Under the pieces are notes generated by a model, which was not told the origin of the DNA, made no database searches, and worked only from the letters and a program-made list of their open reading frames with translations. Of a DNA stretch of 64,000 nt, positions 29,758-57,020 are shown piece after piece. Source of the DNA: Bacilli bacterium (lineage in GTDB: Bacteria; Bacillota_I; Bacilli_A; RFN20; CAG-826); NCBI GenBank assembly GCA_024408495.1, contig JAKSUY010000001.1:3040-67039 (forward strand), read 5' to 3'. The number at the start of each line of letters is the position of its first letter. The first letter of the stretch is position 1. The position numbers were made by a program, and so were the translations under genes.

Positions 29758-30300
29758 TTATTGTATTTCTTTTGTATCAGGATAACGCTTAGTAACAATT
29801 TGTAGCGGTTTAAATAAAAGTAAAAGAATCGCTAGAGTAACCGCCCCAGTGATTGAAACATAAGTAGCGTTATAGATAAATGATGCTAAGAAAGTATATT
29901 CGTATAACCATACTCCATCAATGGTGGCAAATAATATTCTTAGTAAAGTAGCAAGCACTACACTAATAATTAAATAAATAAAACCATATTTCTTTTCAAA
30001 AGTTGGTTTACGTACAAAGCTAATCAAAGTTAAAGCACCACAACTTAACATATAATCTAATGGATAAGTTTGGAAACCGTATCCATCCATGAGGCACGCA
30101 AATAAACCATAGATAAGCGCAGTTGCGATTAAAGTTTTCCACCACGATTTTCTTAAGGCAATAATACATAAGGGAACCATAGTAAATGAAATCGAACCAC
30201 CATTAGACATGATATGAATAGAAAAAATCGGAAGGTTAAGGACTAATGCTAATCCTACAAATATTCCGATTTCTGCTATATCTCTAATTGTATATTTCAT
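29758..30300 (-). CDS. thiT: ThiT-like thiamine ECF S component
   Basis: A six-TM small membrane protein directly behind a TPP riboswitch. The start is placed at MKYTIRD (30300), which has a GGAGGG SD. Confidence 0.7.
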   Translation of the reverse strand: MKYTIRDIAEIGIFVGLALVLNLPIFSIHIMSNGGSISFTMVPLCIIALRKSWWKTLIATALIYGLFACLMDGYGFQTYPLDYMLSCGALTLISFVRKPTFEKKYGFIYLIISVVLATLLRILFATIDGVWLYEYTFLASFIYNATYVSITGAVTLAILLLLFKPLQIVTKRYPDTKEIQ

Positions 30301-30380
30301 TTTTCCCTCCGCTAGCATTACCTAGATCAGGTGTGGTCGGCTATTCGCCCTCTCAGCCCCATAGAGCTCCCAAAACTATT
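30301..30380 (-). promoter_or_regulatory. TPP (THI-box) riboswitch
   Basis: The minus strand reads GGGAGCTCTATGGGGCTGAGAGGGCGAATAGCCGACCACACCTGATCTAGGTAATGCTAGCGGAGGGAAAA. It contains the CUGAGA motif and the ACCUGAUCUrGnUAAUnCyAGCG motif. The 3' strand includes the SD. Confidence 0.85.
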
Positions 30381-30413
30381 ATATATAAACGTTTAGCTAA
30401 ACAAAAATAAATA

Positions 30414-31943
30414 TTATGAGTTAATATTAGCGTTTCGTATTATTTTCATACTACCGCTGCGCTTGAAATCTTCTTTTAGGACAATCACTTTATTAATCCG
30501 CATATGTTGAGGCATATTAATATTTAATTTTTCGACAACGCTCTGTATAGCTTTATTAGCATCCTCGTATCCCATTTTCTTTAAAACGCTATAATTTGGA
30601 TAAATCTTAGCTGCAATAATTCCATACCCTTGATTGTCTTTATCTTCGTAAATTAAAGATGAATGCACTAATGGAATATTATCTAAAGCATTTTCAATAA
30701 TTTCTGGAGAAACATTTTCGCCATTATCTAGAACAATAATATTTTTGCTTCTTCCTGTTATATATAAAAAACCATCTTCATCAAAATGACCTAAATCACC
30801 AGTTTTTAAATACCCATCTTCACTCATAACGTGATTGGTTTCAATTGGATCTTTATAATAACCGCTAAATAAATTGTCGCCTTTTACCCATATCTCGCCA
30901 TCTACAATTTTAACTTCTTGCTCAAGATAAACTTTACCTACAGAATCTGGTTTATTTTTGTAATCAATTGAACCGGATACCAGATTTGCGGTTTCAGTTA
31001 AACCATAACCTGGACAGCATTTAATTCCAACCGATAACAATCTCTTAATCGTATCAGGAGTAACATACGCTCCACCGCAAATAATGTATTCAAGACGACC
31101 ACCGACAGCATCTTTCCCGCCCTTTGCAACCATTGCATAAAGTAAATTAGCTAAAGCAGGTACTAACACTAAAATATTTGGCTTAGCAATGCTGATTTCT
31201 TTAATAAAGTTCATTGTTTCTTTAATTAAATAGATTTCACTTCCGGTATTAATTGATGTTAGTAAATTACGTACTAAACCAAAAACATGGAAAAACGGAA
31301 TTATTGCCATATATGTATTAAAAAACACTTGGCCTTCAACAAAACAACCATTATAAGCACCACGAAGTAACGCAAGATGAGATAATACCGCACCTTTTGG
31401 AGTTCCAGTTGTTCCTCCGGTAAACATAATCACCGCCGGATCAGTAGGTTTAATATCATTATCAAACGGAACACAATCTTTTAAATCGTTTAATTCTTTA
31501 TAAGATATATAAATGACATTCGCTGTTATATCTTTTAATGCAACAACATTCGATTCCGCTTCTTCACCATAAATAATTGCGCTTATATTGAATTTCTTAA
31601 TATTACCAAGTAAGGCCTGAGTAGGTAATATAGGCGGTACAATAACTGCAACTGCTCCAAGAGTTGTAACCGCAAAAAAAGATTTAATGAAGTTATAATC
31701 ATTTTTAAATATCACTGCAACATTATCACCTTTCTTTATTCCAGCATCTAAAAGCACCTTTCTAGTCTTACCAACATCAAGAAAAAGTTCATGATAAGTC
31801 TTTTTACTATCTTTCCACGAAATCGCTGTGCGTTGATTAAACTCTTTATCAGCGTAGGCTAATAAATCTTGCATCCGAGTAAATCTTTTAATTTTAGTAT
31901 AGTCGTCACCGACCATTTGTTTCCAATAATTAATTGTTTCCAT
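30414..31943 (-). CDS. AMP-dependent acyl-CoA / acyl-ACP synthetase (FadD/AasS-like)
   Basis: Motifs FTGGTTGTPKG, GYGLTE and TGDLGHFDEDGFLYITGRSK, 509 aa. Confidence 0.8.
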   Translation of the reverse strand: METINYWKQMVGDDYTKIKRFTRMQDLLAYADKEFNQRTAISWKDSKKTYHELFLDVGKTRKVLLDAGIKKGDNVAVIFKNDYNFIKSFFAVTTLGAVAVIVPPILPTQALLGNIKKFNISAIIYGEEAESNVVALKDITANVIYISYKELNDLKDCVPFDNDIKPTDPAVIMFTGGTTGTPKGAVLSHLALLRGAYNGCFVEGQVFFNTYMAIIPFFHVFGLVRNLLTSINTGSEIYLIKETMNFIKEISIAKPNILVLVPALANLLYAMVAKGGKDAVGGRLEYIICGGAYVTPDTIKRLLSVGIKCCPGYGLTETANLVSGSIDYKNKPDSVGKVYLEQEVKIVDGEIWVKGDNLFSGYYKDPIETNHVMSEDGYLKTGDLGHFDEDGFLYITGRSKNIIVLDNGENVSPEIIENALDNIPLVHSSLIYEDKDNQGYGIIAAKIYPNYSVLKKMGYEDANKAIQSVVEKLNINMPQHMRINKVIVLKEDFKRSGSMKIIRNANINS

Positions 31944-31999: not shown

Positions 32000-32030
32000 T
32001 AAAAAAGCCATCACATTTGATGGCTTTTGC
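32000..32030 (-). terminator. rho-independent terminator ending the acyl/lipid operon
   Basis: On the minus strand: AAGCCATCA-AATG-TGATGGCTT followed by TTTTT. The stem is 32005-32013 paired with 32018-32026. Confidence 0.7.
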
Positions 32031-32040
32031 TTTATTAAAT

Positions 32041-32376
32041 TTATTTCTTTAAACCAAGCTTCTTTCTAGCTTTATTTTTCTTAACAATGGTAATGATCAT
32101 AAGTGGAACGCCTGGGCCTAAAAGACCTGTAGCAACCGCAAAACACACAAACGCAGAACATAAATAAGTCCAAGATAGAACTAGTACCTTTTCGGGAATT
32201 TGTATTGATTCAGGGAATTCAGCAATTTGTGCTATACCAATAGTGTATAAAATAACCGCTACTGAAAGAACAACTGCGCCGGCAATTGACATTATTAAAA
32301 ATGGTTTCCATGATTTAGATGCCCATTTTTTGTACTTTTTATTTTCGGCAGATTTTTTAGTTACTTTTTTTGCCAT
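32041..32376 (-). CDS. small lysine-rich membrane protein (2-3 TM helices)
   Basis: 111 aa. It overlaps the upstream transporter gene by 16 nt. Confidence 0.55.
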   Translation of the reverse strand: MAKKVTKKSAENKKYKKWASKSWKPFLIMSIAGAVVLSVAVILYTIGIAQIAEFPESIQIPEKVLVLSWTYLCSAFVCFAVATGLLGPGVPLMIITIVKKNKARKKLGLKK

Positions 32377-34391
32377 AAAGATTTCTCCTTTATATAAATG
32401 CCATCACTAATAACATTAAAGTTGTTAGTTCTAATGACTATTCCAATTATATTAAGAAATAACGGTATTAGCAAATCACAAATAAAAGTAAGTTTTTTAA
32501 AAGTATTAATTTTTAAATGGTTAGCCGCACCAATTTGTTCCAGATTTTTGTTAAAGAAATGAGAAGTGTAAATATTTAAAAATGGTATTATAAGAGAAAG
32601 GTATAGAAGTAGATATTCATGCGGTTTGATTTTAGCACCGAGTTTTTTAATCTTTTCTAAATCAATAAATAAATTAATAAGACCGAATAAGCCAGCGGTT
32701 AGGATAAACAACGAAACATTGATTAAAACGCTATCGTTAGCAACTAGTCTTTTTTCTTCATCGCCAGATGAGTCAGAATCGGTGATACGATAATTAATAA
32801 TCGCTAGTAATTCTTGTTCTTTTTTTCTTAGACGTAATAGCTTGTCGTTAATTTTGCGTTCATATTTGCTAATGAGAAATTTACTTTTAGAGTAGTTTAA
32901 ATCGCTTACTTCAATCTTAGTAGTGTATATTTTTAATTTTGCTATAAGTCGATTTCTTTTTCTCTTAACTCGCGCTAAATCTTTAATTGCTCCTGCTCTT
33001 AAATCAAGATAAATAGTTTTCGCCGTATAGCGCTTTGGCATTAAGAAGCAAAACGAAAAAGCAGCTATACACGCTATTGTTGCTACGATTGGCACTAAAG
33101 AAACGCCGCATTTCCATGTTTCGCCTCCAGATGTCGGTGCGGTCCAAAGTTTTAAATAGTCGTAAATTAAACTCGAAGCAATTGCGCCTGAAGTAGCTGT
33201 CATTAAAGCCTGCACACCAAAATACATTGCCGAATGATTCTTTTTAGTGATTTTTTCTTCAACCGAAGCAATGGTAGTAGGAATTAAATACGGCATCATA
33301 AAAAAGCCAGATGTTCCGATGCTACCAATAACCGCTCCTAAAGAGCCGATAATCATTTTAGGTACAATGTTATCGCCCCATATATATTGTCCAGCTAAGC
33401 AAAACGAAATCATTCCAACTGAAAAAGAAATGGCACATATTTGATACACGAATCGTTCGCCTTTGTATCGTCGAAGTTTATTAAACAAAAATAACATAAG
33501 CGGCACCGGTCCAAAGGCAAATGTATTTAGAATAGCAGCATAAGTAACACTAAGATTCATCACTCCGCTAATTAATGAATTTTGCGCAACCAGAAACATT
33601 TGCAAACCAAAGAAAGTACAACAATTAACTATCAGCCATTTTAAAAATGGGTTGCTTCTCATAGTTAAAGCAAATGATGTACCAAATGAAACGCTTTCAT
33701 TTTTGCTTATAACTTCTTTTTTGCCACGTAAAAATACTGGAATAAGTATTGTTAACATAATAGGTGATAAATATACGGCTACTTCATAGATTGGAATATT
33801 AATTGCTTTAAAAATTGCCGGGATGGCTGCATATACTAATGCATAAGAAATAGTATCAAAAGCTGATTTATAGGCCGCAACACGTGCGCGTTGCGTTTGG
33901 TTAGAACATACTTCGCTTAACGAACCGTAAAAAGTAATCAAAGCAAAAGTATAAGAAGCAAAAAAGATGATTGACCAAAAGAAGATCCAAATAGAATTAC
34001 CAATTAATTGGCCAGTAGACATACCTGCTTCTCGTCCGAAAACCGGTATCCAACACAAAACATAGGAAACTATCATCGGAACCACTGAAGCAAAAATTGC
34101 AATCCATCGTTTACCTTTTTTATTTTTTAAATTATCTGCTACTGCGGCTAATGGAACATCAATTACTCCATCAAAGATACGACCAATGGTCCAAAGAATA
34201 GGAAAAATGGCAGTATAAACAATAATTACTCCACCATAGCTCCAAAAGTTTATATCGGCTTGTAAACCAGTGGGAATGACCGCATCAGTGAAATACGCCA
34301 TCATTAAAACCATTAGTAAATTAGGACCTAATCCTGCGGCGGCAAAAAGGACCTCTTTCCAACGCTTATCGAGATTAACGTTAGTGAACAT
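32361..34391 (-). CDS. MFS_2/GPH-like transporter with a C-terminal extension of about 210 aa
   Basis: The core of about 460 aa has 12 TM helices with a GPH-like N-terminus (GLGPNLLMVLMMAYFTDAV). The extension has a K/R-rich coiled coil plus extra TM helices. Confidence 0.6.
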   Translation of the reverse strand: MFTNVNLDKRWKEVLFAAAGLGPNLLMVLMMAYFTDAVIPTGLQADINFWSYGGVIIVYTAIFPILWTIGRIFDGVIDVPLAAVADNLKNKKGKRWIAIFASVVPMIVSYVLCWIPVFGREAGMSTGQLIGNSIWIFFWSIIFFASYTFALITFYGSLSEVCSNQTQRARVAAYKSAFDTISYALVYAAIPAIFKAINIPIYEVAVYLSPIMLTILIPVFLRGKKEVISKNESVSFGTSFALTMRSNPFLKWLIVNCCTFFGLQMFLVAQNSLISGVMNLSVTYAAILNTFAFGPVPLMLFLFNKLRRYKGERFVYQICAISFSVGMISFCLAGQYIWGDNIVPKMIIGSLGAVIGSIGTSGFFMMPYLIPTTIASVEEKITKKNHSAMYFGVQALMTATSGAIASSLIYDYLKLWTAPTSGGETWKCGVSLVPIVATIACIAAFSFCFLMPKRYTAKTIYLDLRAGAIKDLARVKRKRNRLIAKLKIYTTKIEVSDLNYSKSKFLISKYERKINDKLLRLRKKEQELLAIINYRITDSDSSGDEEKRLVANDSVLINVSLFILTAGLFGLINLFIDLEKIKKLGAKIKPHEYLLLYLSLIIPFLNIYTSHFFNKNLEQIGAANHLKINTFKKLTFICDLLIPLFLNIIGIVIRTNNFNVISDGIYIKEKSLWQKK

Positions 34392-34641
34392 TAACTCTCT
34401 CCATAATATAGTTAACTACTTCGCGAATAGTTGAAAAAGATGACATTGTTAAATCTTTAATATCGATATTAAATTCGCTTTCTATAGCAAACGATACCAT
34501 AATTAAATCCATTGAACTGAAACCTAAATTTTCAATCGGTTTGCTTTCAAAAGTTATCTTTTCATAATCAAAAACTTTACTTCCGTTAAAGAGCTTTTTA
34601 ATAATATCAATTAATTTATTGAAAATTTCTTCTTCAGTCAT
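34381..34641 (-). CDS. acyl/peptidyl carrier protein
   Basis: 86 aa with a candidate phosphopantetheine site in LGFSSMDLIMV and a four-helix carrier-like pattern. Confidence 0.65.
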   Translation of the reverse strand: MTEEEIFNKLIDIIKKLFNGSKVFDYEKITFESKPIENLGFSSMDLIMVSFAIESEFNIDIKDLTMSSFSTIREVVNYIMERVNVH

Positions 34642-35947
34642 GTTTTTTTCTCATTTTCCTTATTGTATCGTAAATATCTCTCATATGATTATAAACATAA
34701 TCATTATATTCTTCTACTAAATGATTGCTGATAATCGTGTTTCCATTAAGAAAGCGTTCTGGATAAATAGGATCACCGATAGCAAAAATTGTTTTTTTGA
34801 ATACACTATATTTAGAATCCATTAAGAAAGGAATAATCGGGGTTTTTGTCATTAACGAAATCATAGCTAAACCACCCATCAAAGGTTTATTAAATTCTTC
34901 ATTATCAATAATATGACCTTGAGGGTAGATGCCAACAACACCACGAGCTTCTAGGATTTCTCTAATTTCTACAATAAAATTAATATCAAATTTATCCATG
35001 CTCACGCGGCGATATTTAATGACTCCTGAATTTTTCATTGCAAAACGCATAAATTTTTTATGCCACAATTCTTCTTGAGCGACTATCCTTAAACGGCGAG
35101 AAAAAAATGACAAGGATAGAGCGATTGGATCAAACAAACCGATATGGTTAGAGGAAATTAAAACGCTATCTTTCATTAAACGTTTAATCTCTTTCTTATT
35201 GCCTAGATAAATAAGTTTACTCCAAAAAAATAACCGCCACGGAGGAGAAATTAGTTTTGCTGAATCCATAACAAAAGCACGCCTGTTAAACAACTCTTGT
35301 GTTTTATGCTTCTCCATCATTTCTAATTTATGTTTCAAACGATTAACTTCGTTTCTAACATAGTTAATCATTTCTTTGATATCTTCTTCATTAATCGTTT
35401 CCTTCTTAAAAATTTGTCGTAAATAAATTTTCTCTCCCGCAATCAAATGAACTCGTGAAAATAATGAATATTTTCCATTAATATAATATGGAATAATCGG
35501 TTTGTTATTTTCCCAGGCTAACAAAATAGCGCTAGGTTTAAAATCCATGATTTCGCCTTTTTTATCTTCAAGCCTACCTTCAGGGAAAATAAGTACTGTT
35601 TTGTTTTTTGAAAGAAATTCTCTAGTTTTATTAATAGCAACATAATTAGATGAATCACGACTCTCGATTTTGATGTTTCCCATTATTTTATTCAGAGTAG
35701 TTAAAAACTTGATTTTATAAACAATGTCCGACACCATCGTATGAACTACATGAAATAAATATTTATACAAAAATACATAATAATCAAAGATATGCGTATG
35801 GTTAGAAATAATAATTGCACCTTCTTTTAGATTTTTAGCATCCTTTTTTGCTTTATAAGAAGCATAATAAAATTTAGGTTTAAGAATAATCCAAAAAGGA
35901 AGGAACCCAGTAATTTTAATAAATAATCTAGCGAGAAACTTAATCAT
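34634..35947 (-). CDS. tandem PlsC-type (LPLAT) acyltransferase
   Basis: Two HX4D motifs are present (NHTHIFD and NHIGLFD). The first is followed by FPEGR and the second by YPQGH. Confidence 0.7.
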   Translation of the reverse strand: MIKFLARLFIKITGFLPFWIILKPKFYYASYKAKKDAKNLKEGAIIISNHTHIFDYYVFLYKYLFHVVHTMVSDIVYKIKFLTTLNKIMGNIKIESRDSSNYVAINKTREFLSKNKTVLIFPEGRLEDKKGEIMDFKPSAILLAWENNKPIIPYYINGKYSLFSRVHLIAGEKIYLRQIFKKETINEEDIKEMINYVRNEVNRLKHKLEMMEKHKTQELFNRRAFVMDSAKLISPPWRLFFWSKLIYLGNKKEIKRLMKDSVLISSNHIGLFDPIALSLSFFSRRLRIVAQEELWHKKFMRFAMKNSGVIKYRRVSMDKFDINFIVEIREILEARGVVGIYPQGHIIDNEEFNKPLMGGLAMISLMTKTPIIPFLMDSKYSVFKKTIFAIGDPIYPERFLNGNTIISNHLVEEYNDYVYNHMRDIYDTIRKMRKKHD

Positions 35948-36351
35948 TTTTTAAATATCCTCGCAATTTTCTCACGGTATCCTTCAATTTGAGTTTTTGG
36001 TGAAATTTTATAACAGCACTTATTGACGAAATGCTCGCAATTATTGTTGACAAAATTATAGGCGCCTTCTCCTAAATGACTGAAAGCATTAGAGATAATC
36101 GTTTCAACTAAATTTCTGTTCTTTTTTTCTTTGCGAGAATAGATTGCTTTTTCTACTGGGCTATTGGAAGCGAAAAAATCTAAAGAGGTTTTCCTCACTT
36201 TTACATCACTAGGATTAGCAATCCCATCATTATTCTCAGCGGTATAATGAATAACTTCATTATTTCCTAAATATATACCATGATGATAATAGTAATTACG
36301 TGAGACGCGAATATGATCGCCCTTTTCTAAAACCCCGTACTCCCATTTCAT
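35944..36351 (-). CDS. LRAT/PLAAT (NlpC/P60-like) family protein
   Basis: An H-box is present (GDHIRV..YYHHGIYLGNNEVIHY), together with the hallmark NCEHF motif (NNNCEHFVNKC). There are ATGA overlaps at both ends. Confidence 0.7.
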   Translation of the reverse strand: MKWEYGVLEKGDHIRVSRNYYYHHGIYLGNNEVIHYTAENNDGIANPSDVKVRKTSLDFFASNSPVEKAIYSRKEKKNRNLVETIISNAFSHLGEGAYNFVNNNCEHFVNKCCYKISPKTQIEGYREKIARIFKK

Positions 36352-38291
36352 AATGATAATAATTCCTTTATTTTGATGGAGAAATCGCCTGGTGTTCTAC
36401 ATAGGGTTAAATTATTTTTTGCATGTAAATTAAAAGCATTTTCAATCGCTTCCACTAGATAAAAGTAATCGAGAGAATTTCCGTGCAAATCAGCGAAATA
36501 ATCAGTATGAGCATCAATCGGATGATTAGGGAATTTTTGTTTAAATATTTCGATGATTTTATCAACGATAAATTTATCAAATTCCTCGTTATTTAAAAAA
36601 TCACTAAAATCGTTTGGATTAAGTAATCTAAAATCGTTTGGATTTGATTGAAATAATTCTTCAATCTTTTTGCGCTTTATTTTAATTCCGTTTGCTTTAG
36701 GGAAGACTAATGATGTCGCAAAAACTTTTTTAATACTTCCACTTCTATACTCAATATTAGAAGTAAGGATAGATAAATCACGTGCAATTTGATAGTCATT
36801 TACATTAGCACTATAAGAAAGTAAAAGACACAAATCATTGTTTTGATTTTTAATTAAAACTGAATCTAAAGCGTAACGAAGATTTAAATTAGCTTCAATT
36901 AGCGAAATCGACTTATTCTCGCCATTAGCGCCAATGAATATTTCATCGACTCTACCTTTTAGGACATAGTGATTGTTGATTAAATCCGCTACATCAAAAG
37001 TACGTATTTTTTTAGATTTATCCCTTGTTATCCATTGATTATCAATAAGCGCTTTATTAAACATTGATTCGCTTTTTATATATAGTTCATTACTAGAACC
37101 ATCGCTTGCTGATTCTAATGAATAATCAAAAATTTTAAATGGTAATCCAATGTTTGGAGTTACTCTTTCAGTGATTTTTTTAGGATTAGCAAATGATGCG
37201 ATACCAATTTCAGTTGATCCATAACCATTCACCAATGGATAACCAATTCCGTTAATAATTTTTAACGTCTCTTCGGTAATTTGTGAGCCACCCACAATGC
37301 AAAATTGAATTGATACACCTAAGATGTCCTCTAAATATTTCCCGAATAGCATTTTACGAACAATTGTATTTCCGAACTTAGGAAATACTTTTTGTAGACC
37401 AAGTGAAAGCTTTATTCCTTTATTAAATTTCTGCTCTAAATGATTAGATTTTACGTTAAATTTAATCATTGATACGATGGTTTCAAAGAATAAGGGGACC
37501 GCAAAAATATGTGTGGGCCTACAAACAACACAAGCTTGTCGGATTCTTTCTGATGATAAATTCATTGGTAAGACAAACGTAACGTTAAAGAAAGAAAACC
37601 AGAGAAAAACCGCTACAAAACCAAAAATATGATAAAAAGGTAAAACTACTAAATGTTTTAAATATCCTTTATAATCTCGAGCTAAAATCGGATTCTTTTT
37701 AAATATGTCTTCGCAATTGAGTACTTGTGCGCATAGTTCCTTTCCAGTAAAAGCAACTATTTTATTAGGACCAGATGTTCCTGATGAGATGAAAACAATT
37801 TCATCCGCCCATTCGTGCTTATGATTTATTTCGATTTGAATTTCTTGGCACGGATTGATTTGATTAACACCAAGATTGCATTCTATGTCAGTTATTACAT
37901 ACGTTGAATTAACCTTTTTTAATATTTCTTGGTTTTCGTCATTATCGTTTCTTGTGCTTAATAAGACAGGTATATATCCATACATCAAAAGGCCATAAAA
38001 AGAATAAATCCATTCAGGTTTATTATCTAATAAGATCCCAACATAACGACTGTTGCTAGCAATAATCGATTGAAAATATGATCCAAATTTTTCGATTTGG
38101 CAAAAAGCATCATGATAACTAATATCTTCTACTCCAGCGTTATTAACCACTTGAAGAAAAGTATAGTTAGGATGAGAAAAAACGATTTGAAAAATGCTTT
38201 CGATTGTCGGTGTTGAGTTTTGTAATTTATTTAGATTCTCTTTTACTCGATTTTTAGCAATTCGATGAGAAATTTTCTCTTCTTTAATCAT
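36348..38291 (-). CDS. adenylate-forming (ANL) enzyme fused to a C-terminal carrier domain
   Basis: Motifs SSGTSGPNK, NGYGSTE and LKGRVDEIF. The C-terminal region of about 80 aa contains DLHGNSLDYFYLVEAIE, a carrier Ser motif. Confidence 0.7.
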   Translation of the reverse strand: MIKEEKISHRIAKNRVKENLNKLQNSTPTIESIFQIVFSHPNYTFLQVVNNAGVEDISYHDAFCQIEKFGSYFQSIIASNSRYVGILLDNKPEWIYSFYGLLMYGYIPVLLSTRNDNDENQEILKKVNSTYVITDIECNLGVNQINPCQEIQIEINHKHEWADEIVFISSGTSGPNKIVAFTGKELCAQVLNCEDIFKKNPILARDYKGYLKHLVVLPFYHIFGFVAVFLWFSFFNVTFVLPMNLSSERIRQACVVCRPTHIFAVPLFFETIVSMIKFNVKSNHLEQKFNKGIKLSLGLQKVFPKFGNTIVRKMLFGKYLEDILGVSIQFCIVGGSQITEETLKIINGIGYPLVNGYGSTEIGIASFANPKKITERVTPNIGLPFKIFDYSLESASDGSSNELYIKSESMFNKALIDNQWITRDKSKKIRTFDVADLINNHYVLKGRVDEIFIGANGENKSISLIEANLNLRYALDSVLIKNQNNDLCLLLSYSANVNDYQIARDLSILTSNIEYRSGSIKKVFATSLVFPKANGIKIKRKKIEELFQSNPNDFRLLNPNDFSDFLNNEEFDKFIVDKIIEIFKQKFPNHPIDAHTDYFADLHGNSLDYFYLVEAIENAFNLHAKNNLTLCRTPGDFSIKIKELLSL

Positions 38292-38302
38292 ATATAGCGT
38301 TC

Positions 38303-38965
38303 TTAGTTATTATCCCAATTAATTTTTTTTATGCCATTACTTATTAAATAATCGTTACATTTTTTGAAGTGATTGTTGCCAAACCAACCGCCACGATTAG
38401 CGCTTAATGGTGATGGATGAACACTTTTTAAAATTAAACGATTTGGATTATGAATATATTGCTCATATTGTTTAGCATTATTGCCCCACAACATGAATAC
38501 GATTGGCTGATTAAGTGTATCTATGTAATTTAAAATATCAGCAATAAATAATTTATATTCATTAATGTTGTGACTTAATGCTTGGTGGGCACGAACAGTT
38601 AGCACAGTGTTAAGTAAAAGGCACCCTTGTTTTGCTAAATAAGTTAAATCGCCATTATTCTTCATCTTAATTCCGTATTCGTTTTCAATTTCTTTGTAAA
38701 TGTTAATTAGGCTTGGCGGAAGTTCCACTCCGTTAGGAACTGAAAAACATAGCCCCATCGCTTGATTAGGTTCGTGATATGGATCTTGACCAATAATTAC
38801 GACTTTAATTTCATTAGGTTTAGTTTTATTAAAGGCATTATGAATTAAATTTCGTGGGGGGTAAACTGTATATTTAGCGTATTCAGAATCTAAAAAAATA
38901 TGCAATTTTTGTGCATAATCTTTGCCTTTTATACCATTAAATAAGTTTGCCCAGTCATTTAACAT
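38303..38965 (-). CDS. ung: uracil-DNA glycosylase
   Basis: Motifs GQDPYH, SLINIYKE and HPSPLSA. The start is placed at MLNDW (38965). Confidence 0.93.
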   Translation of the reverse strand: MLNDWANLFNGIKGKDYAQKLHIFLDSEYAKYTVYPPRNLIHNAFNKTKPNEIKVVIIGQDPYHEPNQAMGLCFSVPNGVELPPSLINIYKEIENEYGIKMKNNGDLTYLAKQGCLLLNTVLTVRAHQALSHNINEYKLFIADILNYIDTLNQPIVFMLWGNNAKQYEQYIHNPNRLILKSVHPSPLSANRGGWFGNNHFKKCNDYLISNGIKKINWDNN

Positions 38966-39047
38966 ACAATCTATTTTACAATAAAATAGTTTGCTTATAA
39001 GCAAAAAGTAATATATCTTATTGTATGTATCGTTTGGAGTTCAAACT

Positions 39048-39610: not shown

Positions 39611-40261
39611 TTAGAAGAAATCGCCGCGAGCTTGTTGACGCGTAGTTGTATCAATTGAGAATGGGATGCGGGTGGTATAGCCTTTCTTAGCCGCAACAAT
39701 CTTCTTGGTTGGCCAAGCCATAATAGCTGAGTTCCATTCATATACGCTATCGTTGTACGCTTCACGCGCAGCTGTAATCTCTTTTTGTAAATAAGAGTTT
39801 TGTTGCATCGCATCTTCAAGTTCTTGATGAGCCTTAAGATCTGGATAGCGTTCAATCGCAACGTTAATTTGTTTATTAACTTCTTCAATCGCTTGCGCTT
39901 CCGCATTCATATTTTTGCCGCTTCTTAATTCAGCAATCTTAGTGAATGTATCTTGATCAAACTTAAGGGATTTATCAAGAATCTTGGCGCAGTTCTTTAA
40001 GATTTGTACTCTTTGTTCTAAGTAGTTATCAATCTGGCTCGCATCGTGATTGATTTTTTGTTGAAGTGCTTGTAAATAGTTACCTGCCTTCATTTTCATA
40101 AGCAAGAAAATCACTCCGGGGATAATTGCTAATACCCAAAGGATTACTTGAAAAACTGTACTCCCAGTGCCCACTTTGGCTGGTATTTGTTTTTCAATGA
40201 CATGCACATCCCGACCAGCTTCGTTTACTGGTGCAGTCATCTCGTCTAATTCATTTGCCAT
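39611..40261 (-). CDS. lemA: LemA family protein
   Basis: An N-terminal TM helix and LemA-type helices (ERYPDLKA...REAYNDSVYEWNSAIMAWP). Confidence 0.8.
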   Translation of the reverse strand: MANELDEMTAPVNEAGRDVHVIEKQIPAKVGTGSTVFQVILWVLAIIPGVIFLLMKMKAGNYLQALQQKINHDASQIDNYLEQRVQILKNCAKILDKSLKFDQDTFTKIAELRSGKNMNAEAQAIEEVNKQINVAIERYPDLKAHQELEDAMQQNSYLQKEITAAREAYNDSVYEWNSAIMAWPTKKIVAAKKGYTTRIPFSIDTTTRQQARGDFF

Positions 40262-40277
40262 AAATAATTTCTCCTTT

Positions 40278-41981
40278 TTATTTATCTAGGGAAGTTTCTT
40301 TTAATAGAGCAGAAACCAATCCCTTTTGATAGTATACATTCTTTACATTATGATTAGCAAAAATATTTTGTGTTTGGCTATATTCATAACGATTCTTTTT
40401 AAGATCACGAACGATAAACGGGGTTTTCTTAGATACCTTGATATATTCATCCCAAGGGACCGGCACTAAATGAGTCATACCATCTCCGCCTAAAGTTGGA
40501 ACCATCTCCACTCTTGGGATTGCTTTGAAGGTATGAGCAGTTACACTCATAATGTCATTATCACCATCTCTACGAACAAATTCGGTTTTTAAAATGGCAT
40601 CAGTCGCGGTATCTTTATGCACTAAATCAGATTTATCAAAATGATTGATGATTGATTCGGTTTCAAAGCTAGTGTATCGGCCTTGATGATTATCCTTATA
40701 AATATATTCTGTGGCTTTATAGTTTTGATATAGCGGGATTGAAAGCAAAGGCGCTAAATCAAAATAAAGACTTTGGAAATAAGCATCGCAATAACTAATA
40801 AGCGCTTCTTTAGCTTTACTAGCATCAAAATCAATAAATTTAGTTGGATCAGCTGAATAGTCAAAGCCTTGCGCATGTGCGGTTTTAATAAAGTTCAATT
40901 GTTTTTGTTTATGGAAAGTAAAGTCATCGCCATATGGTTCATTCATACGAATTAAATCAACCATGTTGTTCTGCGCTAATGGAGTAAATAATAATCTAAA
41001 TTCAACTTCATTATCTCGATTAAGCGCATTAAATAAACCTTCAAATTTAGTATTGGCTAATTTAGTAAAGTTCATGTCTTTCTCAGATTTCTTATTTAAT
41101 TGCTTTTCAAACTTCTTAGTAAATTTAGATAAATGTTTATCATCCATCTTGCCTTTATCACTTGGAGAGCGAGAGAAGGTAAGTTTAGGAGCGGCGCCAT
41201 TACCATACACTAGCCAAGTATCAAGGTAATAAGCTGGTTTAGGCTTAGAGACATGCGCTACCAAGGTTTGAGTATGGTGAACTGGATAAGAATGACCATT
41301 GCTATCTCTATGATAAGTAGTCCAATGAATAACTAAGGTTCCAGTATAAACATGTGACGTCATCTCTTGAACATAATTTTGCTCAATTACAAATGGGTTA
41401 CCTAAAATCGACCCGGATTGAACAAATACAGTTGATATATCATCACCATCATGTTCGGTGTAGCCATATTTATCTTTTAAATAATAAAGTCGTTCATTAT
41501 TAAAATATTGATCAACTTTAATAAGTGGAATCGTTTTAGAAAACATATCAGCAGGAATATTCCATTCCAGCATGCTGTTAAATAAAGCGGTTTGCTGAGC
41601 AGCTTGCTCTTTTAACTCGTTAGCTTTAGTAATTAATTTCTCCGCTTCTTCATTAGCGTTTTGGATTTCTTTATCGATTTTGTTTTTGATTTTACTTCTA
41701 ATCAGTAATCCAACCGGAATTAAGACAACCAAGACAAAACAAATAATCATTAACACTTTAAGGAAGGTCCTTAATTTGCCTTTCTTGCTACTAGCCTTTC
41801 TTGCTGCTTCAATTTCAGTTAATTTCTTGTAATATTCATCACAAGTGCTCTTGTTTGCTTCAAGATTAGTGTTACTTTTCTTAATTAAATCATCATAAAA
41901 ATCTAAGACATTTTGATGATACATGTCTTTAGCTTGTTGATAAACCTTAACTGGTTCGGTAATGTCTTTTATACTTGGCAT
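40278..41981 (-). CDS. single-TM coiled-coil protein with a large uncharacterised domain
   Basis: 567 aa with a TM helix at about residues 72-95. It lies 16 nt upstream of lemA. I recognise no motif. Confidence 0.55.
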   Translation of the reverse strand: MPSIKDITEPVKVYQQAKDMYHQNVLDFYDDLIKKSNTNLEANKSTCDEYYKKLTEIEAARKASSKKGKLRTFLKVLMIICFVLVVLIPVGLLIRSKIKNKIDKEIQNANEEAEKLITKANELKEQAAQQTALFNSMLEWNIPADMFSKTIPLIKVDQYFNNERLYYLKDKYGYTEHDGDDISTVFVQSGSILGNPFVIEQNYVQEMTSHVYTGTLVIHWTTYHRDSNGHSYPVHHTQTLVAHVSKPKPAYYLDTWLVYGNGAAPKLTFSRSPSDKGKMDDKHLSKFTKKFEKQLNKKSEKDMNFTKLANTKFEGLFNALNRDNEVEFRLLFTPLAQNNMVDLIRMNEPYGDDFTFHKQKQLNFIKTAHAQGFDYSADPTKFIDFDASKAKEALISYCDAYFQSLYFDLAPLLSIPLYQNYKATEYIYKDNHQGRYTSFETESIINHFDKSDLVHKDTATDAILKTEFVRRDGDNDIMSVTAHTFKAIPRVEMVPTLGGDGMTHLVPVPWDEYIKVSKKTPFIVRDLKKNRYEYSQTQNIFANHNVKNVYYQKGLVSALLKETSLDK

Positions 41982-42063: not shown

Positions 42064-45000
42064 ATGTTAACAGTTAAAAATTTAGTAAAAATTTATCACA
42101 CTAAGGGCGGTGTTGTGACTAAAGCCCTAGACAATGTATCGGTTGATTTTCCTGAAACCGGAATGGTGTTCTTATTAGGCAAGAGCGGATCAGGTAAATC
42201 TACATTGCTTAATATGATAGGCGGTCTTGATCGACCAGATTCAGGTGAAGTCATCGTTAAGGGCAAGAGTAGTAAAAACTTTTCTACTCGTGACTTTGAT
42301 AGTTACCGTAATACCTTTATTGGTTTTATTTTCCAAGAATACAATATTCTTAATGAATTTAATGTTGAGCAAAATATCGCATTAGCGTTGCAACTACAAG
42401 GCAAGAAATCTAATAAAGAAGCAATTGCTAAATTATTAAAAGAAGTTGATTTAGTAGGACTAGAAAAAAGAAAGCCAAATACTTTATCAGGTGGTCAAAA
42501 ACAAAGAATCGCCATCGCTAGAGCATTAATTAAAGAACCTCAAATCATTATGGCGGATGAACCTACTGGAGCGCTTGATTCTAATACAGGTAAGCAAGTC
42601 TTTGATACTTTAAAGAAATTAAGTAAACAAAAATTAGTAATTGTTGTTTCTCACGACCGTGAGTTTGCTCAATTATATGGTGATCGTATTATTGAATTAA
42701 AAGATGGAAAGATTATTTCTGATGATTCAAAAGTTTATCAACAAGCCAAGAAAGTAAGCGAAAACGTTAACTTAATCAGTGGCAATATTATACAAATCAA
42801 GAATGCATCTAAATTATCAGCAAAGGATGATAAGGCAATTATTGATGCATTAAAGAAACAAAAAGGTGAAGTAATTATCTCCGGCGGAAATAATAATTTA
42901 CCAAACATTAAGAAAGCTTTAAAGATTAACGAAAGCGGTGCTAGCGAATCGTTTGATAAGACTACTAAAGTCGACATTAAACAATACGATGGCAATCAAA
43001 CCAAATTCATTAAATCTAAAATGCCATTTTGGAGAGCATTTAAGATTGGCGCTTCTGGTTTAAAAGTTAAACCTTTCCGTTTAGTTATGACTATTCTGTT
43101 ATCAACTGCTTCATTTGCGATGTTCGGCATTGTTTCTACATTGATGCTCTATAACCCAAATTATTCTATTCGCGAAGCGATGAGAAACGTAGATTATAAA
43201 ACCGAAACCATTAATAAAAAATATAAATACAAAAGTCAAAGCCTTGTTATCGACTATGATACTGGAAAGACAGAAATAAGATATACTAGCAATGAGCAAA
43301 CGAATTCGGCATTATTTGGTATAAAAGAACTAAAAGAACTAAATAATAATTCCTCTGGATTAAAGTTTGCCGGAATGTTTAATTTTTCAAGTTCATACTC
43401 AGGCGGAGGCAATGGTTTTTACATTGAAGGATTATCCGAAACCGGGGAAGATAAGGATTATTATAACCAAGCGCTATTTACTGGTTTTTCTGATTGCGGT
43501 GATGATTATATGAGAAGCCAAGGTTTTAATAATTGCTACGGTGGCACCTATCCAGTCGAAGCCAACGAAATTGCTATATCTAATTACATGGCCGATGCTT
43601 TAATTCAAGGTGTTTATTTTGGTAAAGATACACCCGGTCAAGAAAAGGATTTAGTTGGAAAAACAATATCTATTAGCGGCAATACATCAACCGGTAATGC
43701 AATTAAAGAGGATTTAGTGATTACCGGCGTTTATCACATTGCCGATATTCCTAGTACTTACGACTCGCTTAAAAAAGAGCGCGAAAGCGCAGTTCAAAGC
43801 GAAGAAAATCGTAAGAAGGTAAAAGAAGGATTAGAGAATTTTCTTAATGGCGGGTTCTTTAAAACTGCCTTTGTGAGCGACAAATTCTATGAAGCTCATA
43901 AAACCTTTGCGCCTTCAACTGATCTCCAAACATATGTCAATAGTGTTCCGCTAAAAGGAATTATTTTTAGAGGACAATATCCCCTTAATGATGAGGTTAA
44001 TTATGATTGGGGTGAATCTGCTTACGACTATGATTACGTTAAAGATTCAAGCGTTTTTAAATATTACAAAATAGAAAACGACGAACCGGTTGATATTGCT
44101 GACATACATGGATTATCTGATGATGAAGCAATTGTTTCTCAATACGCCATTAACGATTTAACTAGAAGCGCAATCGGTAAATTCGGAAGTACGAGAGCGC
44201 AATTTGAGGATATGTATAACTACCTTAGTAGTATAAAACAATTTTGTGAAGATGATATGACAGATGCCATTACAAAAGTTTACAATGACCATTACGAGAA
44301 TTTCACGAATCAATTAGGCGATTGGCAAAAATCAATATTTGATGAACAATTCTATAACGACTACGAAGCGATTAAGGATTGTCTTAATAACTATTACAAT
44401 AAATTTCAATTTATTAGATTTTTCTATTATTATGGAAGCCAAATATATTACACAATTGAAAATGAAGAAAAATATCCTAGTGCGAAATCCTCGGCTGAAT
44501 GGACTAATGCAAAAGATTCATTTAAAAAATTTACATACGATAACGAAGGTAAAATAACTGATGATGATATCACCAAAATGGATGCTTTTGTTAAAGCGTT
44601 CATTGACAAAATTGATGAAATTAGGGCACCTTTATTTAAACACATCGGCGATAAAGTTTGTCAGGCTGGAGGCGTTCAGTTCAGCCACGAAATTTACGGA
44701 AAAGGCGACAATATAGGGTATCAAGAATTAGTAAACAATCTTATTGGCGATAACAACATCACTGAAGAATTTATTACCGAAACTGAAAGACTCTATAAAA
44801 AATTCTATGGCAAAACATTAAATCTCCATGACGAAAGATCTTATTATCCTGATAACCATGCTGTGTTTGACCCTTGTTATGAATTTAAATCATATTACTT
44901 CTGTAAAACTGGTAATTCAGAAAGCGATATTAAAGAATTAAATGCTAAATATTATTATCAAAACTCTGAAAGATATAATTCCGCTCCTATTCTTTCTCAT

Positions 45001-48770: not shown

Positions 48771-48823
48771 ATCAATAAGCCTCACTAATTTTAATGTAAT
48801 CTAACATTATCATAAATAAAATA

Positions 48824-55467: not shown

Positions 55468-55476
55468 TATTTTATA

Positions 55477-56757: not shown

Positions 56758-56775
56758 CTTTTGTACATCCTCCTT

Positions 56776-56808
56776 AAAAAATTAAAAAGCTTCCGTATCG
56801 GAAGCCTC
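56776..56808 (-). terminator. riboswitch expression-platform terminator
   Basis: On the minus strand: GCTTCCG-ATA-CGGAAGC followed by TTTTTAATTTTTT. Confidence 0.75.
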
Positions 56809-56850
56809 TTACTACAAGAACACTACTATATTATTAATATATATGTTCAT

Positions 56851-56910: not shown

Positions 56911-57020
56911 GTTAATCTGACGATTAACAAAAACATATTAATATGTAATATCATTATTAGCAACAATAATCGTAGATTATAACAATAAAAGCGCTTTCAT
57001 ATATAAAAATAGTTTTTTTA

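What the first reader, a model, noticed from the sequence alone, without database searches (positions are those of the whole stretch)
32041..38291. Six-gene translationally coupled acyl-activation, carrier, acyltransferase and transporter operon: a split and expanded Aas/LplT-like lipid salvage module
Six minus-strand genes are chained by overlapping stops and starts:
- ATGA overlaps at 36348-36351 and 35944-35947
- an 8-nt overlap at 34634-34641
- an 11-nt overlap at 34381-34391
- a 16-nt overlap at 32361-32376

The operon ends at a clean terminator (32000-32030).

Gene content, in order:
- an ANL adenylating enzyme with its own carrier domain (GNSLD)
- an LRAT/PLAAT-like NCEHF protein
- a double PlsC-type acyltransferase with two HX4D motifs
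- a free 86-aa carrier protein
- an MFS_2/GPH-like transporter
- a small membrane protein

A second FadD/AasS-like ligase follows the terminator (30414-31943).

From established knowledge, E. coli LplT (an MFS lysophospholipid flippase) and Aas (a PlsC-like acyltransferase fused to an acyl-ACP synthetase that uses ACP) together re-acylate imported lysophospholipids. The MFS_2 family also contains the eukaryotic lysolipid carrier MFSD2A. This cluster has the same four activities as separate genes, plus an LRAT-type enzyme and a second carrier.

I infer a system for uptake, activation and transacylation of exogenous lipids in a fatty-acid-auxotrophic, host-associated bacterium. I do not know this gene combination as a described system.
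Basis: partly seen in the sequence, partly recalled or inferred. Interest (0 to 1): 0.8.

Follow-up and report, generated by a model that had tools for sequence, protein, structure and literature searches.

The report
Carrier-linked lipid acylation and transporter module
A reduced gut bacterium carries a conserved but uncharacterised gene set (fatty-acid-type activating enzymes, built-in and free acyl carriers, a tandem lipid acyltransferase, a PLAAT/LRAT-like enzyme and an MFSD2A-like transporter) that probably builds membrane lipids from scavenged host or dietary lipids.

Summary
Six minus-strand ORFs (32041-38291) overlap at every junction and end at a strong terminator, and all six family assignments hold.

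The unit is conserved well beyond this genome. The constant core is an A-T ligase, a tandem PlsC acyltransferase and a long MFS_2 transporter.
- 34 of the 120 listed ligase homologs are about 1,100-aa ligase-carrier-PlsC-PlsC fusions.
- LRAT is fused elsewhere to the tandem PlsC, to a phosphopantetheinyl transferase (23 of 150 representatives) or to an ACP.
- Distant versions sit beside FakA, DegV, PlsX, ACPS and alpha/beta-hydrolase genes.

The transporter belongs to MFS_2/GPH, not to LplT, and its closest solved folds are MFSD2A lysolipid symporters by a narrow margin.

Three corrections:
- The sixth "gene" is a transporter tail, fused in frame in a 78% relative.
- The FadD-like ligase beyond the terminator belongs to the conserved module.
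- The acid activated by the A-T ligase is not fixed by homology.

Best reading: an analogue of Aas/LplT with its own acyl carriers, used to assimilate exogenous lipids. It is a new variant of a known kind. The function and the acceptor lipid remain inferred. ElbD-like ACS-ACP-AGPAT proteins had been noticed before but never characterised.

The parts
36348..38291 (-). A-T ligase (647 aa). ANL adenylation domain at about residues 40-560 (36612-38174). In-cis carrier (T) domain at about residues 565-647 (36351-36599).
   Evidence: PF00501 E = 1.1e-34. The motifs SSGTSG, PFYHIFG, GYGxTE and K537 are conserved. The AF2 model has pLDDT 87.9. Its best Foldseek hit is the McyG A-PCP didomain over the full length. 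Homologs carry PF00550.
36474..36476 (-). Codon of Ser606, the predicted phosphopantetheine attachment site of the in-cis carrier (HGNSLD).
   Evidence: Invariant in the 50-sequence alignment A4, consensus DLGGxSL. Coordinates checked.
35944..36351 (-). Soluble LRAT/PLAAT-like Cys-His enzyme (135 aa). H23 is at 36283-36285, H35 at 36247-36249 and C105 at 36037-36039.
   Evidence: PF04970 E = 3.2e-25. Aligns to human PLAAT2/3/4 with the triad in register. H23 and C105 are invariant in module-linked and fused homologs. No TM segment.
34634..35947 (-). Tandem PlsC/AGPAT acyltransferase (437 aa). N domain at 35303-35947 with H50/D55. C domain at 34637-35302 with H268/D273. N-terminal hydrophobic helix at residues 4-22.
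   Evidence: PF01553 matches in two stretches, E = 3.4e-31. Both HX4D motifs and both PEG blocks are invariant. The profile hits T. maritima PlsC 5kym at 1.2e-16. Both halves hit AGPAT and Aas-type models.
34381..34641 (-). Free 86-aa acyl carrier protein. The Ser43 codon is at 34513-34515.
   Evidence: PF00550 E = 1.3e-6. ACP NCBIfam models reach up to 1.1e-11 but stay below their cut-offs. The Ser aligns with the carrier Ser of other module ACPs.
32361..34391 (-). MFS_2/GPH-type transporter (676 aa). 12-TM core at residues 1-455 (33027-34391). Conserved C-terminal extension at 32364-33026 with a long helical hairpin and 4-5 more helices. Invariant D74 (34170-34172) and D78 (34158-34160).
   Evidence: PF13347 scores 58.4 bits against a cut-off of 27. 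At least 870 homologs, many about 55% identical including the extension. AF2 pLDDT 82.6. The top Foldseek hits are MFSD2A structures.
32041..32376 (-). 111-aa two-TM protein. It is a detachable C-terminal module of the transporter.
   Evidence: Fused in frame to the MFS in L004 as a 794-aa ORF. Hydropathy shows 2 TM segments. No Pfam or NCBIfam hit.
32003..32028 (-). Intrinsic terminator hairpin followed by a U-run.
   Evidence: -15.1 kcal/mol, z = -4.0.
30414..31943 (-). FadD/AasS-like acyl ligase (509 aa). It is transcribed separately here but is part of the conserved module elsewhere.
   Evidence: PF00501 E = 7e-59 plus AMP-binding_C_3. Orthologs (41-48% identity) lie between dPlsC and ACP in L001, L002, L006 and L029. 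The ortholog follows the transporter in L004.

Best explanation
This is a lipid-acylation module that carries its own acyl carriers. It works like the Gram-negative LplT/Aas lysophospholipid re-acylation system but is built from different parts. It most likely lets a reduced gut bacterium make diacyl membrane lipids from scavenged lipids.

Proposed steps:
1. The MFS_2/GPH transporter (MFSD2A-like fold, conserved MelB-type Asp pair) takes up or flips an amphipathic, glycerol-based acceptor. A lysophospholipid or lysoglycolipid is most likely. This step is inferred.
2. The A-T ligase adenylates a free carboxylic acid, presumably a fatty acid, and thioesterifies it to its own phosphopantetheine arm on Ser606. 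The FadD-like ligase does the same onto the free ACP (Ser43), like an acyl-ACP synthetase. The architecture is shown; the substrates are inferred.
3. The membrane-anchored tandem PlsC enzyme uses its two intact HX4D active sites. It transfers carrier-bound acyl groups to two hydroxyls, either sn-1 and sn-2 or two kinds of lyso-acceptor. The pairing of the parts is shown by fusions; the chemistry is inferred.
4. The soluble LRAT/PLAAT-like Cys-His enzyme acts on the carrier thioester. It could shuttle acyl chains between diacyl lipids and the carrier through a Cys-acyl intermediate. It could instead hydrolytically edit mis-loaded carriers. This step is inferred from its fusions to PPTase, ACP and PlsC.

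The PPTase needed to prime the carriers is encoded elsewhere in this genome.
For: - All family assignments hold and the catalytic residues are intact.
- Fusions join the parts. A-T-PlsC-PlsC proteins of about 1,100 aa make up 34 of the 120 listed ligase homologs (L022 confirmed). LRAT-PlsC-PlsC and PlsC-LRAT also occur. LRAT-PPTase accounts for 23 of 150 representatives and ACP-LRAT for 1 of 150. The ACP-LRAT fusion lies inside an A-T/PlsC/PlsC module.
- Gene order is conserved from 78% down to about 28% identity in Bacilli and Clostridia MAGs.
- The A-T and MFS hit lists share 21 identical longest-contig lengths.
- Distant versions sit next to exogenous-fatty-acid machinery: FakA, DegV, PlsX, ACPS, alpha/beta hydrolases and patatin.
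- An ordinary single-domain PlsC exists beside the module in L024 and L025. The module is therefore an extra, not the housekeeping LPAAT.
- The transporter's best solved-structure matches are MFSD2A lysoPC symporters: 8d2t, 7mjs, 7oix and 8d2s.
- D74 and D78 align with MelB D55 and D59.
- The PlsC halves hit Aas-type acyl-ACP phospholipid acyltransferase models.
- LplT binds the transferase domain of Aas as a complex (PMC11416262). That parallels the tight transporter-acyltransferase linkage seen here.
- RF39-type gut Bacilli lack fatty-acid synthesis and must assimilate exogenous lipid (PMC6784871).
Against: - There is no experimental datum for any member.
- The transporter has no detectable sequence relation to LplT, and none to MFSD2A or MelB in PDB searches.
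- The MFSD2A lead over sialin, MdfA and MelB in Foldseek is narrow (8e-8 against 2e-7 to 7e-7).
- The A-T ligase's nearest sequence and fold neighbours are MenE, 4-chlorobenzoate ligase, MatB and McyG. They are not long-chain acyl-CoA synthetases.
- A lysolipid needs only one acylation, so two obligatory PlsC domains are not explained without an extra assumption.
- Some versions (L003, L024, L027, L028, L030) have no adjacent MFS.
- Auxotrophy of this organism has not been verified.
Confidence: 0.55

Rival explanations
1. Soluble head-group import followed by double acylation. The GPH-type symporter imports a water-soluble glycerol derivative such as glycerophosphocholine, glycerophosphoglycerol or a glycosylglycerol. 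The tandem PlsC then acylates both free hydroxyls and makes a membrane lipid directly, bypassing phosphatidic acid.
For: Both PlsC domains are always present and catalytically intact. This holds whether they are fused, tandem or split into two adjacent genes. That pattern fits an acceptor needing two acylations. Bacterial MFS_2/GPH members typically carry soluble glycosides (established knowledge of TC 2.A.2). The MelB-type Asp pair is conserved (a lead only).
Against: The best structural matches are the lysolipid carrier MFSD2A rather than MelB, though narrowly. No glycerophosphodiesterase or head-group-specific gene is linked. The pathway is known only by analogy, from streptococcal GPC acylation and yeast Gpc1 (own knowledge and the titles).
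Confidence: 0.17
2. FASII-independent phosphatidic acid synthesis. The tandem PlsC acts as a combined glycerol-3-phosphate and lysophosphatidate acyltransferase, fed by ATP-activated exogenous fatty acids on dedicated carriers. The MFS supplies fatty acid or another precursor.
For: The module sits in line with DegV-FakA-PlsX-ACPS in L003 and beside the same genes in L027 and L028. The module ACP may be the only ACP in some of these genomes. RF39-type Bacilli lack FASII (PMC6784871). The PF01553 family includes GPATs (established knowledge).
Against: A separate single-domain PlsC, with its own ACP and PlsX, coexists with the module in L024. A separate PlsC also coexists in L025. The tight and highly conserved coupling to a 650-680-aa MFS is unexplained. 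Neither half reaches the AGPAT model cut-off, and both also resemble Aas-type lysophospholipid acyltransferases.
Confidence: 0.13
3. Biosynthesis and export of a specialised acylated lipid or metabolite. An NRPS-like A-T loading module activates an unusual (aryl or short) acid. The PlsC and LRAT enzymes attach it to a lipid or glycolipid. The MFS flips or exports the product to the cell surface, in the manner of LtaA.
For: The A-T ligase's closest folds are aryl or small-acid ligases and a PKS/NRPS loading didomain. MFS proteins also act as lipid flippases and exporters. GT4 glycosyltransferase genes lie near the module in L025 and about 7 kb away in the window.
Against: There are no condensation, KS, TE or tailoring genes in any locus. 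The module recurs next to exogenous-fatty-acid utilisation genes. The PFYHIFG motif and the JGI label 'long-subunit acyl-CoA synthetase/acyl carrier protein' for homolog P0116 point to acyl-CoA-synthetase-type enzymes. The glycosyltransferase linkage is not conserved.
Confidence: 0.1

Closest known systems
E. coli LplT/Aas lysophospholipid transport and re-acylation system
   Same: It pairs an MFS transporter gene with a PlsC-type acyltransferase, an ANL acyl-activating enzyme and an acyl carrier. In E. coli the transporter and the transferase domain form a physical complex (PMC11416262). The PlsC halves here hit Aas-type NCBIfam models.
   Different: - The transporter is MFS_2/GPH, not LplT.
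- The carrier is built into the ligase, and there is an extra dedicated ACP. Aas uses the cellular ACP.
- The acyltransferase is duplicated.
- In fused relatives the domain order is A-T-AT-AT, whereas Aas is AT-A.
- An LRAT-type enzyme is added.
- The hosts are Bacilli and Clostridia, whereas LplT/Aas is described as a Gram-negative system (PMC11416262).
Myxococcus xanthus ElbD and 'ElbD-like homologues lacking the FAR1 domain'
   Same: ElbD combines acyl-CoA-synthetase-like, ACP and AGPAT-like acyltransferase domains in one polypeptide. Here 34 of 120 listed relatives of the ligase have A-T-PlsC-PlsC in one protein. The review PMC9131029 notes that FAR-less ElbD-like proteins occur in anaerobes and animal-associated bacteria and that no lipid analysis exists for them.
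   Different: There is no reductase domain and no ether-lipid genes. There are two AGPAT domains rather than one. The module is linked to an MFS_2 transporter, LRAT, a free ACP and a second ligase. Sequence homology to ElbD itself could not be tested here.
Mammalian PLAAT/HRASLS and LRAT enzymes (PF04970)
   Same: The fold family is the same and the Cys-His-His triad is in register: C105, H23 and H35 against PLAAT3 C113, H23 and H35.
   Different: The protein is soluble and has no C-terminal membrane anchor. Its bacterial relatives are fused to phosphopantetheinyl transferases, ACPs or PlsC domains. The second His is Q or A in the PPTase-fused group. This suggests a carrier-thioester substrate, which is not known for the mammalian enzymes.
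MFSD2A, the Na+-dependent lysophosphatidylcholine symporter of the MFS_2 family
   Same: Same Pfam family (PF13347). Four of the five best Foldseek matches are MFSD2A structures.
   Different: Sequence identity is 11-14%, and there is no HMMER-detectable similarity. A 220-aa C-terminal extension adds a helical hairpin and further TM helices, plus a detachable 2-TM tail.
Chlamydia trachomatis AasC (CT776) and LpaT (CT775)
   Same: An acyl-ACP synthetase gene lies next to a lysophospholipid acyltransferase gene. The pair is used by a host-dependent bacterium to incorporate host fatty acids (PMC5693948, title and abstract).
   Different: That system uses the cellular ACP and a single acyltransferase domain. 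It has no in-cis carrier, LRAT or MFS_2 partner.

Membership tests
Aas (bifunctional acyl-ACP synthetase / 2-acyl-GPE acyltransferase) | PlsC-type HX4D acyltransferase domain | tested here: met
   There are two such domains. H50/D55 and H268/D273 are invariant.
Aas (bifunctional acyl-ACP synthetase / 2-acyl-GPE acyltransferase) | Score above the NCBIfam equivalog cut-off (PRK08043, PRK08633, PRK06814) | tested here: not met
   The scores are 39.7, 75.3 and 31.9 bits. The cut-offs are 886, 1221 and 1349.
Aas (bifunctional acyl-ACP synthetase / 2-acyl-GPE acyltransferase) | Acyltransferase followed by the AMP-binding domain in one chain, using free cellular ACP | tested here: not met
   The genes are separate in the window. 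Fused relatives have the order A-T-AT-AT with an in-cis carrier.
LplT lysophospholipid transporter family | Sequence membership in the LplT family | tested here: not met
   No NCBIfam family matched at E <= 0.01. I did not check that an LplT model is in that library. The best Pfam match is MFS_2, and MFS_1 falls below its cut-off.
LplT lysophospholipid transporter family | Flips lysophospholipids for re-acylation | not testable with these tools
   This needs transport assays.
MFS_2 / GPH (PF13347; MelB, MFSD2A) | Pfam score above the gathering threshold | tested here: met
   58.4 bits against 27, covering residues 21-443.
MFS_2 / GPH (PF13347; MelB, MFSD2A) | 12-TM MFS fold closest to family members | tested here: met
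   The AF2 model has pLDDT 82.6. MFSD2A takes ranks 1, 2, 3 and 5, and MelB ranks 10-12 and 14. The margins are narrow.
MFS_2 / GPH (PF13347; MelB, MFSD2A) | TM2 cation-site aspartate pair (MelB D55/D59) | tested here: inconclusive
   D74 and D78 are invariant. They align to D55 and D59 in hhalign (E = 6e-5, probability 65%).
LRAT/PLAAT (PF04970) | Pfam score above the cut-off and the Cys-His-His triad | tested here: met
   89.2 bits against 24.3. C105, H23 and H35 align to the PLAAT triad.
LRAT/PLAAT (PF04970) | C-terminal membrane anchor as in the mammalian members | tested here: not met
   No hydrophobic segment was found.
LRAT/PLAAT (PF04970) | Phospholipase A / acyltransferase activity on phospholipids | not testable with these tools
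   This needs enzymology.
PlsC/AGPAT (PF01553, TIGR00530) | HX4D and PEG blocks, and the Pfam cut-off | tested here: met
   108.2 bits against 23, in two stretches.
PlsC/AGPAT (PF01553, TIGR00530) | TIGR00530 subfamily-domain cut-off | tested here: not met
   The whole protein scores 96.1 bits against 102.95. The halves score 53.3 and 47.4 bits.
ANL adenylating enzyme with in-cis carrier (A-T didomain) | Adenylation core motifs plus a carrier domain with a conserved Ser | tested here: met
   PF00501 matches. S606 and K537 are invariant. Homologs carry PF00550. The model aligns to the McyG A-PCP didomain over the full length.
NRPS amino-acid adenylation / DltA | Amino-acid A-domain or DltA model match, with DltB/DltD partners | tested here: not met
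   - TIGR01733 matches only a partial stretch, at 1e-7 and 31 bits against a cut-off of 317.
- DltA scores 17.5 bits against 476.
- The A4 motif is PFYHIFG, not FDxS (with my own knowledge of the motifs).
- No MBOAT or DltD genes are present.
ElbD-like multidomain ether-lipid enzyme | ACS-ACP-AGPAT domains in one polypeptide | tested here: not met
   The domains are split into separate genes in the window. They are fused in 34 of the 120 listed homologs.
ElbD-like multidomain ether-lipid enzyme | FAR-type reductase domain, and direct homology to ElbD | not tested
   No reductase domain was seen in any locus.

The most novel reading that the evidence does not exclude
Bacterial LRAT/PLAAT homologs form a new class of carrier-protein-directed transacylases. 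They would take acyl chains from host or dietary diacyl lipids onto their catalytic Cys. They would then pass the chains to the phosphopantetheine thiol of a dedicated carrier, or work in the reverse direction. With the A-T ligase, the tandem PlsC and the MFSD2A-like transporter, they would form the main membrane-building line of FASII-less uncultivated gut Bacilli and Clostridia such as RF39.
Probability: 0.15. Interest if true: 0.85.

Novelty: new variant of a known kind. Interest (0 to 1): 0.62.

Why it matters
Uncultivated gut Bacilli with reduced genomes, such as RF39, lack fatty-acid synthesis altogether. How they build membranes is an open question (PMC6784871). This module is widespread in such metagenomes. 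The ligase has at least 602 homologs and the transporter at least 870.

It would give these bacteria a concrete, testable route for turning scavenged lipids into their own membrane lipids. It would also:
- extend the LplT/Aas principle outside Gram-negative bacteria;
- assign a first physiological context to bacterial PLAAT/LRAT homologs and their unexpected fusions with phosphopantetheinyl transferases;
- provide a bacterial model for MFSD2A-type lysolipid transport;
- suggest lipid supplements that might help to culture these organisms.

Tried and rejected
- **Genome scan with the 19-sequence alignment.** It failed because the alignment was too diverse. The scan was repeated with 10 sequences.
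- **PDB sequence searches for the transporter.** Single-sequence and profile searches gave nothing up to E = 1. At E = 10 only a chance coiled-coil match to ATP synthase subunit b appeared. No residue-level mapping to MFSD2A was possible.
- **One ligase and carrier per PlsC domain.** I rejected this as a requirement. Both PlsC domains persist with only the A-T ligase (L005, L022, L024, L025). They also persist with only FadD-like plus ACP in the locus (L001, L006).
- **The module is simply the housekeeping PlsC.** This is weakened by the separate single-domain PlsC in L024 and L025.
- **Sixth ORF as an independent small protein.** Rejected in favour of a transporter tail.
- **Dlt or NRPS amino-acid ligase reading.** Rejected.
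- **Anti-phage defence system.** PADLOC gave no hits.
- **ung as part of the unit.** It lies 11 nt upstream in the window, but no ung homolog was found in the L004 locus.
- **Literature searches.** I searched for LRAT with ACP or PlsC, for LplT/Aas in Firmicutes, for Mollicutes lipid remodelling and for bacterial PLAAT homologs. None turned up a description of this gene set.

Full report
**Observation**

The window (about 33% G+C) contains six consecutive minus-strand ORFs at exactly the stated coordinates.
- Their junctions overlap by 4, 4, 8, 11 and 16 nt.
- The five internal genes have AGGA/GGAG-type ribosome-binding sites.
- The first gene starts 11 nt after the stop of a uracil-DNA glycosylase gene and has no obvious site.
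- A hairpin at 32003-32028 followed by a U-run closes the unit. It folds at -15.1 kcal/mol with z = -4.0 against shuffles.
- The FadD-like gene follows, with a TGnTATAAT-like element upstream.

The rest of the window is ordinary chromosomal DNA of a reduced, salvage-oriented Bacilli genome.
- It encodes ribosomal proteins, SmpB, GatA/B, LigA, PcrA and TsaBDE.
- It encodes ECF vitamin S-components, one behind a TPP riboswitch.
- It encodes a PnrA-type nucleoside ABC transporter behind a purine riboswitch.
- The 64 kb contains no FASII, Fak, PlsX or PPTase genes.

The closest named relatives are 'MAG: Bacilli bacterium' assemblies from animal and human gut samples.

**Families**

Pfam and NCBIfam confirm every assignment.
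- **First protein.** It is an ANL adenylating enzyme with conserved core motifs and a C-terminal carrier domain.
  - Pfam did not call PF00550 in the window protein.
  - Ser606 in HGNSLD is invariant in 50 homologs, many of which carry PF00550.
  - The AF2 model (pLDDT 87.9) aligns over its full length to the McyG A-PCP didomain.
- **Second protein.** It is an LRAT/PLAAT-family protein.
  - Its C105, H23 and H35 align with the catalytic triad of human PLAAT2/3/4.
  - It has no membrane anchor.
- **Third protein.** It has two PF01553 domains.
  - Both HX4D motifs and both PEG blocks are invariant across 19 homologs.
  - It has an N-terminal hydrophobic helix.
  - Each half hits both the generic AGPAT model and Aas-type acyl-ACP phospholipid acyltransferase models, all below their cut-offs.
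- **Fourth protein.** It is a divergent ACP with Ser43.
- **Fifth protein.** It is an MFS_2/GPH transporter (58.4 bits against a cut-off of 27). A conserved 220-aa extension follows the 12-TM core.
- **Sixth ORF.** It matches no family.

**Conservation and fusions**

This is the strongest evidence that the genes form one functional unit. The tandem PlsC protein is rare in the word-indexed search (45 hits). Those hits include LRAT-PlsC-PlsC fusions and carrier-PlsC fragments.

The A-T ligase has at least 602 homologs. Of the 120 listed, 34 are about 1,100-aa A-T-PlsC-PlsC fusions. One of these (L022) was confirmed domain by domain and is followed directly by the long MFS.

Context look-ups and a reference-genome scan gave these gene orders:

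| Locus | Gene order |
|---|---|
| Window, L004 | A-T / LRAT / dPlsC / ACP / MFS (+tail) / FadD-like |
| L005, L025 | A-T / LRAT / dPlsC / MFS |
| L022, L023 | [A-T-dPlsC fusion] / MFS |
| L001, L006 | dPlsC / FadD-like / ACP / MFS |
| L002 | A-T / dPlsC / FadD-like / ACP / [LRAT-PPTase] / hydrolase / DegV / MFS / FakA / two hydrolases |
| L003 | DegV / FakA / PlsX / ACPS / A-T / dPlsC / ACP |
| L024 | A-T / dPlsC / LRAT / ACPS |
| L027, L028 | ACPS on the other strand; A-T / PlsC-N / PlsC-C / ACP / LRAT. A divergent PlsX-FakA-DegV-DegV operon lies about 3 kb upstream |
| L030 | A-T / PlsC / PlsC / [ACP-LRAT fusion] |
| L029 | FadD-like / ACP / [LRAT-PPTase] / hydrolase |

The A-T and MFS hit lists share 21 identical longest-contig lengths, which suggests frequent co-location.

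The constant core is therefore a carrier-loading ligase, two PlsC domains and usually the MFS. LRAT, the free ACP, the FadD-like ligase and the PPTase are recurrent accessories.

In the exhaustive search the LRAT protein had 3,145 representative relatives. Of the best 150:
- 23 are LRAT-PPTase fusions;
- 5 are LRAT/PlsC fusions;
- 1 is an ACP-LRAT fusion.

H23 and C105 are invariant in these proteins. H35 is Q or A in the PPTase-fused group.

**The transporter**

It is the best-conserved component, about 55% identical across hundreds of proteins including the extension.

It has no NCBIfam hit and no PDB sequence hit, even when searched as a profile. It is therefore not an LplT relative.

The AF2 model (pLDDT 82.6) is closest to MFSD2A lysophosphatidylcholine symporters, which take ranks 1, 2, 3 and 5. 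Sialin, MdfA and MelB follow within one order of magnitude, so this is consistent with lysolipid transport but does not prove it.

The invariant D74 and D78 align with the MelB cation-site D55 and D59 in a profile alignment (E = 6e-5).

The 111-aa ORF is fused in frame to the transporter in L004. It is absent downstream of the more distant L005 transporter.

**Mechanism**

Shown:
- The architecture and the intact catalytic residues.
- The A-T to PlsC-PlsC linkage, through fusions.
- The linkage of LRAT to carrier machinery.
- The association with exogenous-fatty-acid genes.

Inferred:
- The ligases load fatty acids onto Ser606 and onto ACP Ser43.
- The tandem PlsC transfers these acyl groups to two hydroxyls of a glycerol-based acceptor delivered by the transporter.
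- LRAT forms a Cys-acyl intermediate with carrier thioesters, either for transacylation with diacyl lipids or for editing.

A separate ordinary PlsC next to the module in L024 and L025 argues that the module is an addition to housekeeping phosphatidate synthesis.

Open points:
- **The acid.** The nearest relatives of the A-T ligase are MenE, 4-chlorobenzoate ligase, MatB, McyG and NRPS A-T modules. They are not long-chain acyl-CoA synthetases. Its PFYHIFG motif is of the acyl/aryl-CoA-ligase type (own knowledge). JGI labels one homolog 'long-subunit acyl-CoA synthetase/acyl carrier protein'.
- **The acceptor.** It could be a lysolipid, a soluble glycerol head group or glycerol-3-phosphate.
- **The two acyltransferase domains.** Why both are obligatory is unexplained.
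- **The direction of transport.**

**Comparison with known systems**

The module works like LplT/Aas: an MFS, a PlsC-type transferase, an acyl-activating enzyme and a carrier, with transporter and transferase acting as a complex (PMC11416262). It fails the membership tests for both families.

It resembles ElbD in joining synthetase, ACP and AGPAT domains. The review PMC9131029 mentions FAR-less ElbD-like proteins in anaerobes that have never been analysed.

Four features have no described counterpart that I could find:
- the duplicated acyltransferase;
- the MFS_2 partner with its extension;
- the second ligase-ACP pair;
- the LRAT enzyme wired to carrier proteins.

**Verdict**

This is a new variant of a known kind, a carrier-dependent lipid re-acylation system coupled to an MFS transporter. 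The bacterial LRAT-carrier connection is a genuinely unexplored element. The module also bears on how FASII-less gut Bacilli build their membranes (PMC6784871).

Noticed in passing
window 29758-30383 (-): A TPP riboswitch (30286-30383, 58 bits) precedes a ThiT-like ECF S-component. The listed ORF start (ATG at 30318) lies inside the 3' part of the aptamer. The true start is probably the downstream Met (MKYT...). The expression platform may overlap the ribosome-binding site.
   Followed up: partly
window 50431-56930 (-): A purine riboswitch (56834-56930) lies upstream of a PnrA/Bmp-type nucleoside ABC transporter operon. The operon encodes a binding protein, a 696-aa double ATPase and two permeases, one of them unusually long (662 aa). 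This is typical of purine-salvaging reduced genomes.
   Followed up: no
window 38303-39004 (-): A uracil-DNA glycosylase gene ends only 11 nt upstream of the A-T ligase start, which lacks a Shine-Dalgarno sequence. The two may be co-transcribed here. No ung homolog was found in the L004 locus.
   Followed up: partly
window 39611-41981 (-): A LemA-family gene follows a 567-aa protein that has one TM segment and no Pfam match. The pair is of unknown function.
   Followed up: no
window 42064-45624 (+): A 1,186-aa single-chain fusion of an ABC ATPase with an FtsX-like permease (MacB-like). An alpha-amylase-family gene follows it.
   Followed up: no
window 8588-10745 (-): The SmpB ORF as listed (TTG start at 9139) overlaps the upstream Polysacc_synt flippase-like gene by 83 nt. 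The SmpB Pfam match begins at residue 35, so the real start is probably further downstream.
   Followed up: no
P0166 (from; not in the window): A 1,125-aa protein contains at least 10 tandem LRAT domains. Several other proteins have 2-4 tandem LRAT domains. Such repeat architectures are unexplained.
   Followed up: no
L006 and L026 (both in assembly GCA_963612735.1, labelled Gemmiger formicilis): In this MAG the module is split over two contigs. One carries DegV / A-T / LRAT plus two membrane proteins without Pfam matches (138 and 405 aa). The other carries dPlsC / FadD-like / ACP / MFS. The Gemmiger label looks doubtful, because L006 has the same gene content and order as L001 (an unnamed ENA contig) and its proteins match the window's at nearly the same identities.
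   Followed up: partly
L002 14137-15126 and 19149-21024; L003 11377-12357; L027 5281-6231; L024 3482-4318: Alpha/beta-hydrolase genes (Hydrolase_4/Abhydrolase_1, the family of monoacylglycerol lipases and lysophospholipases) and a patatin gene recur beside the module. They are candidate lipases that release fatty acids or lysolipids for it.
   Followed up: no
window 637-2796 (-) and 47661-48785 (-): Two putative surface proteins. One carries a Listeria-Bacteroides repeat and the other a DUF6273 domain. They may act in host or particle adhesion.
   Followed up: no
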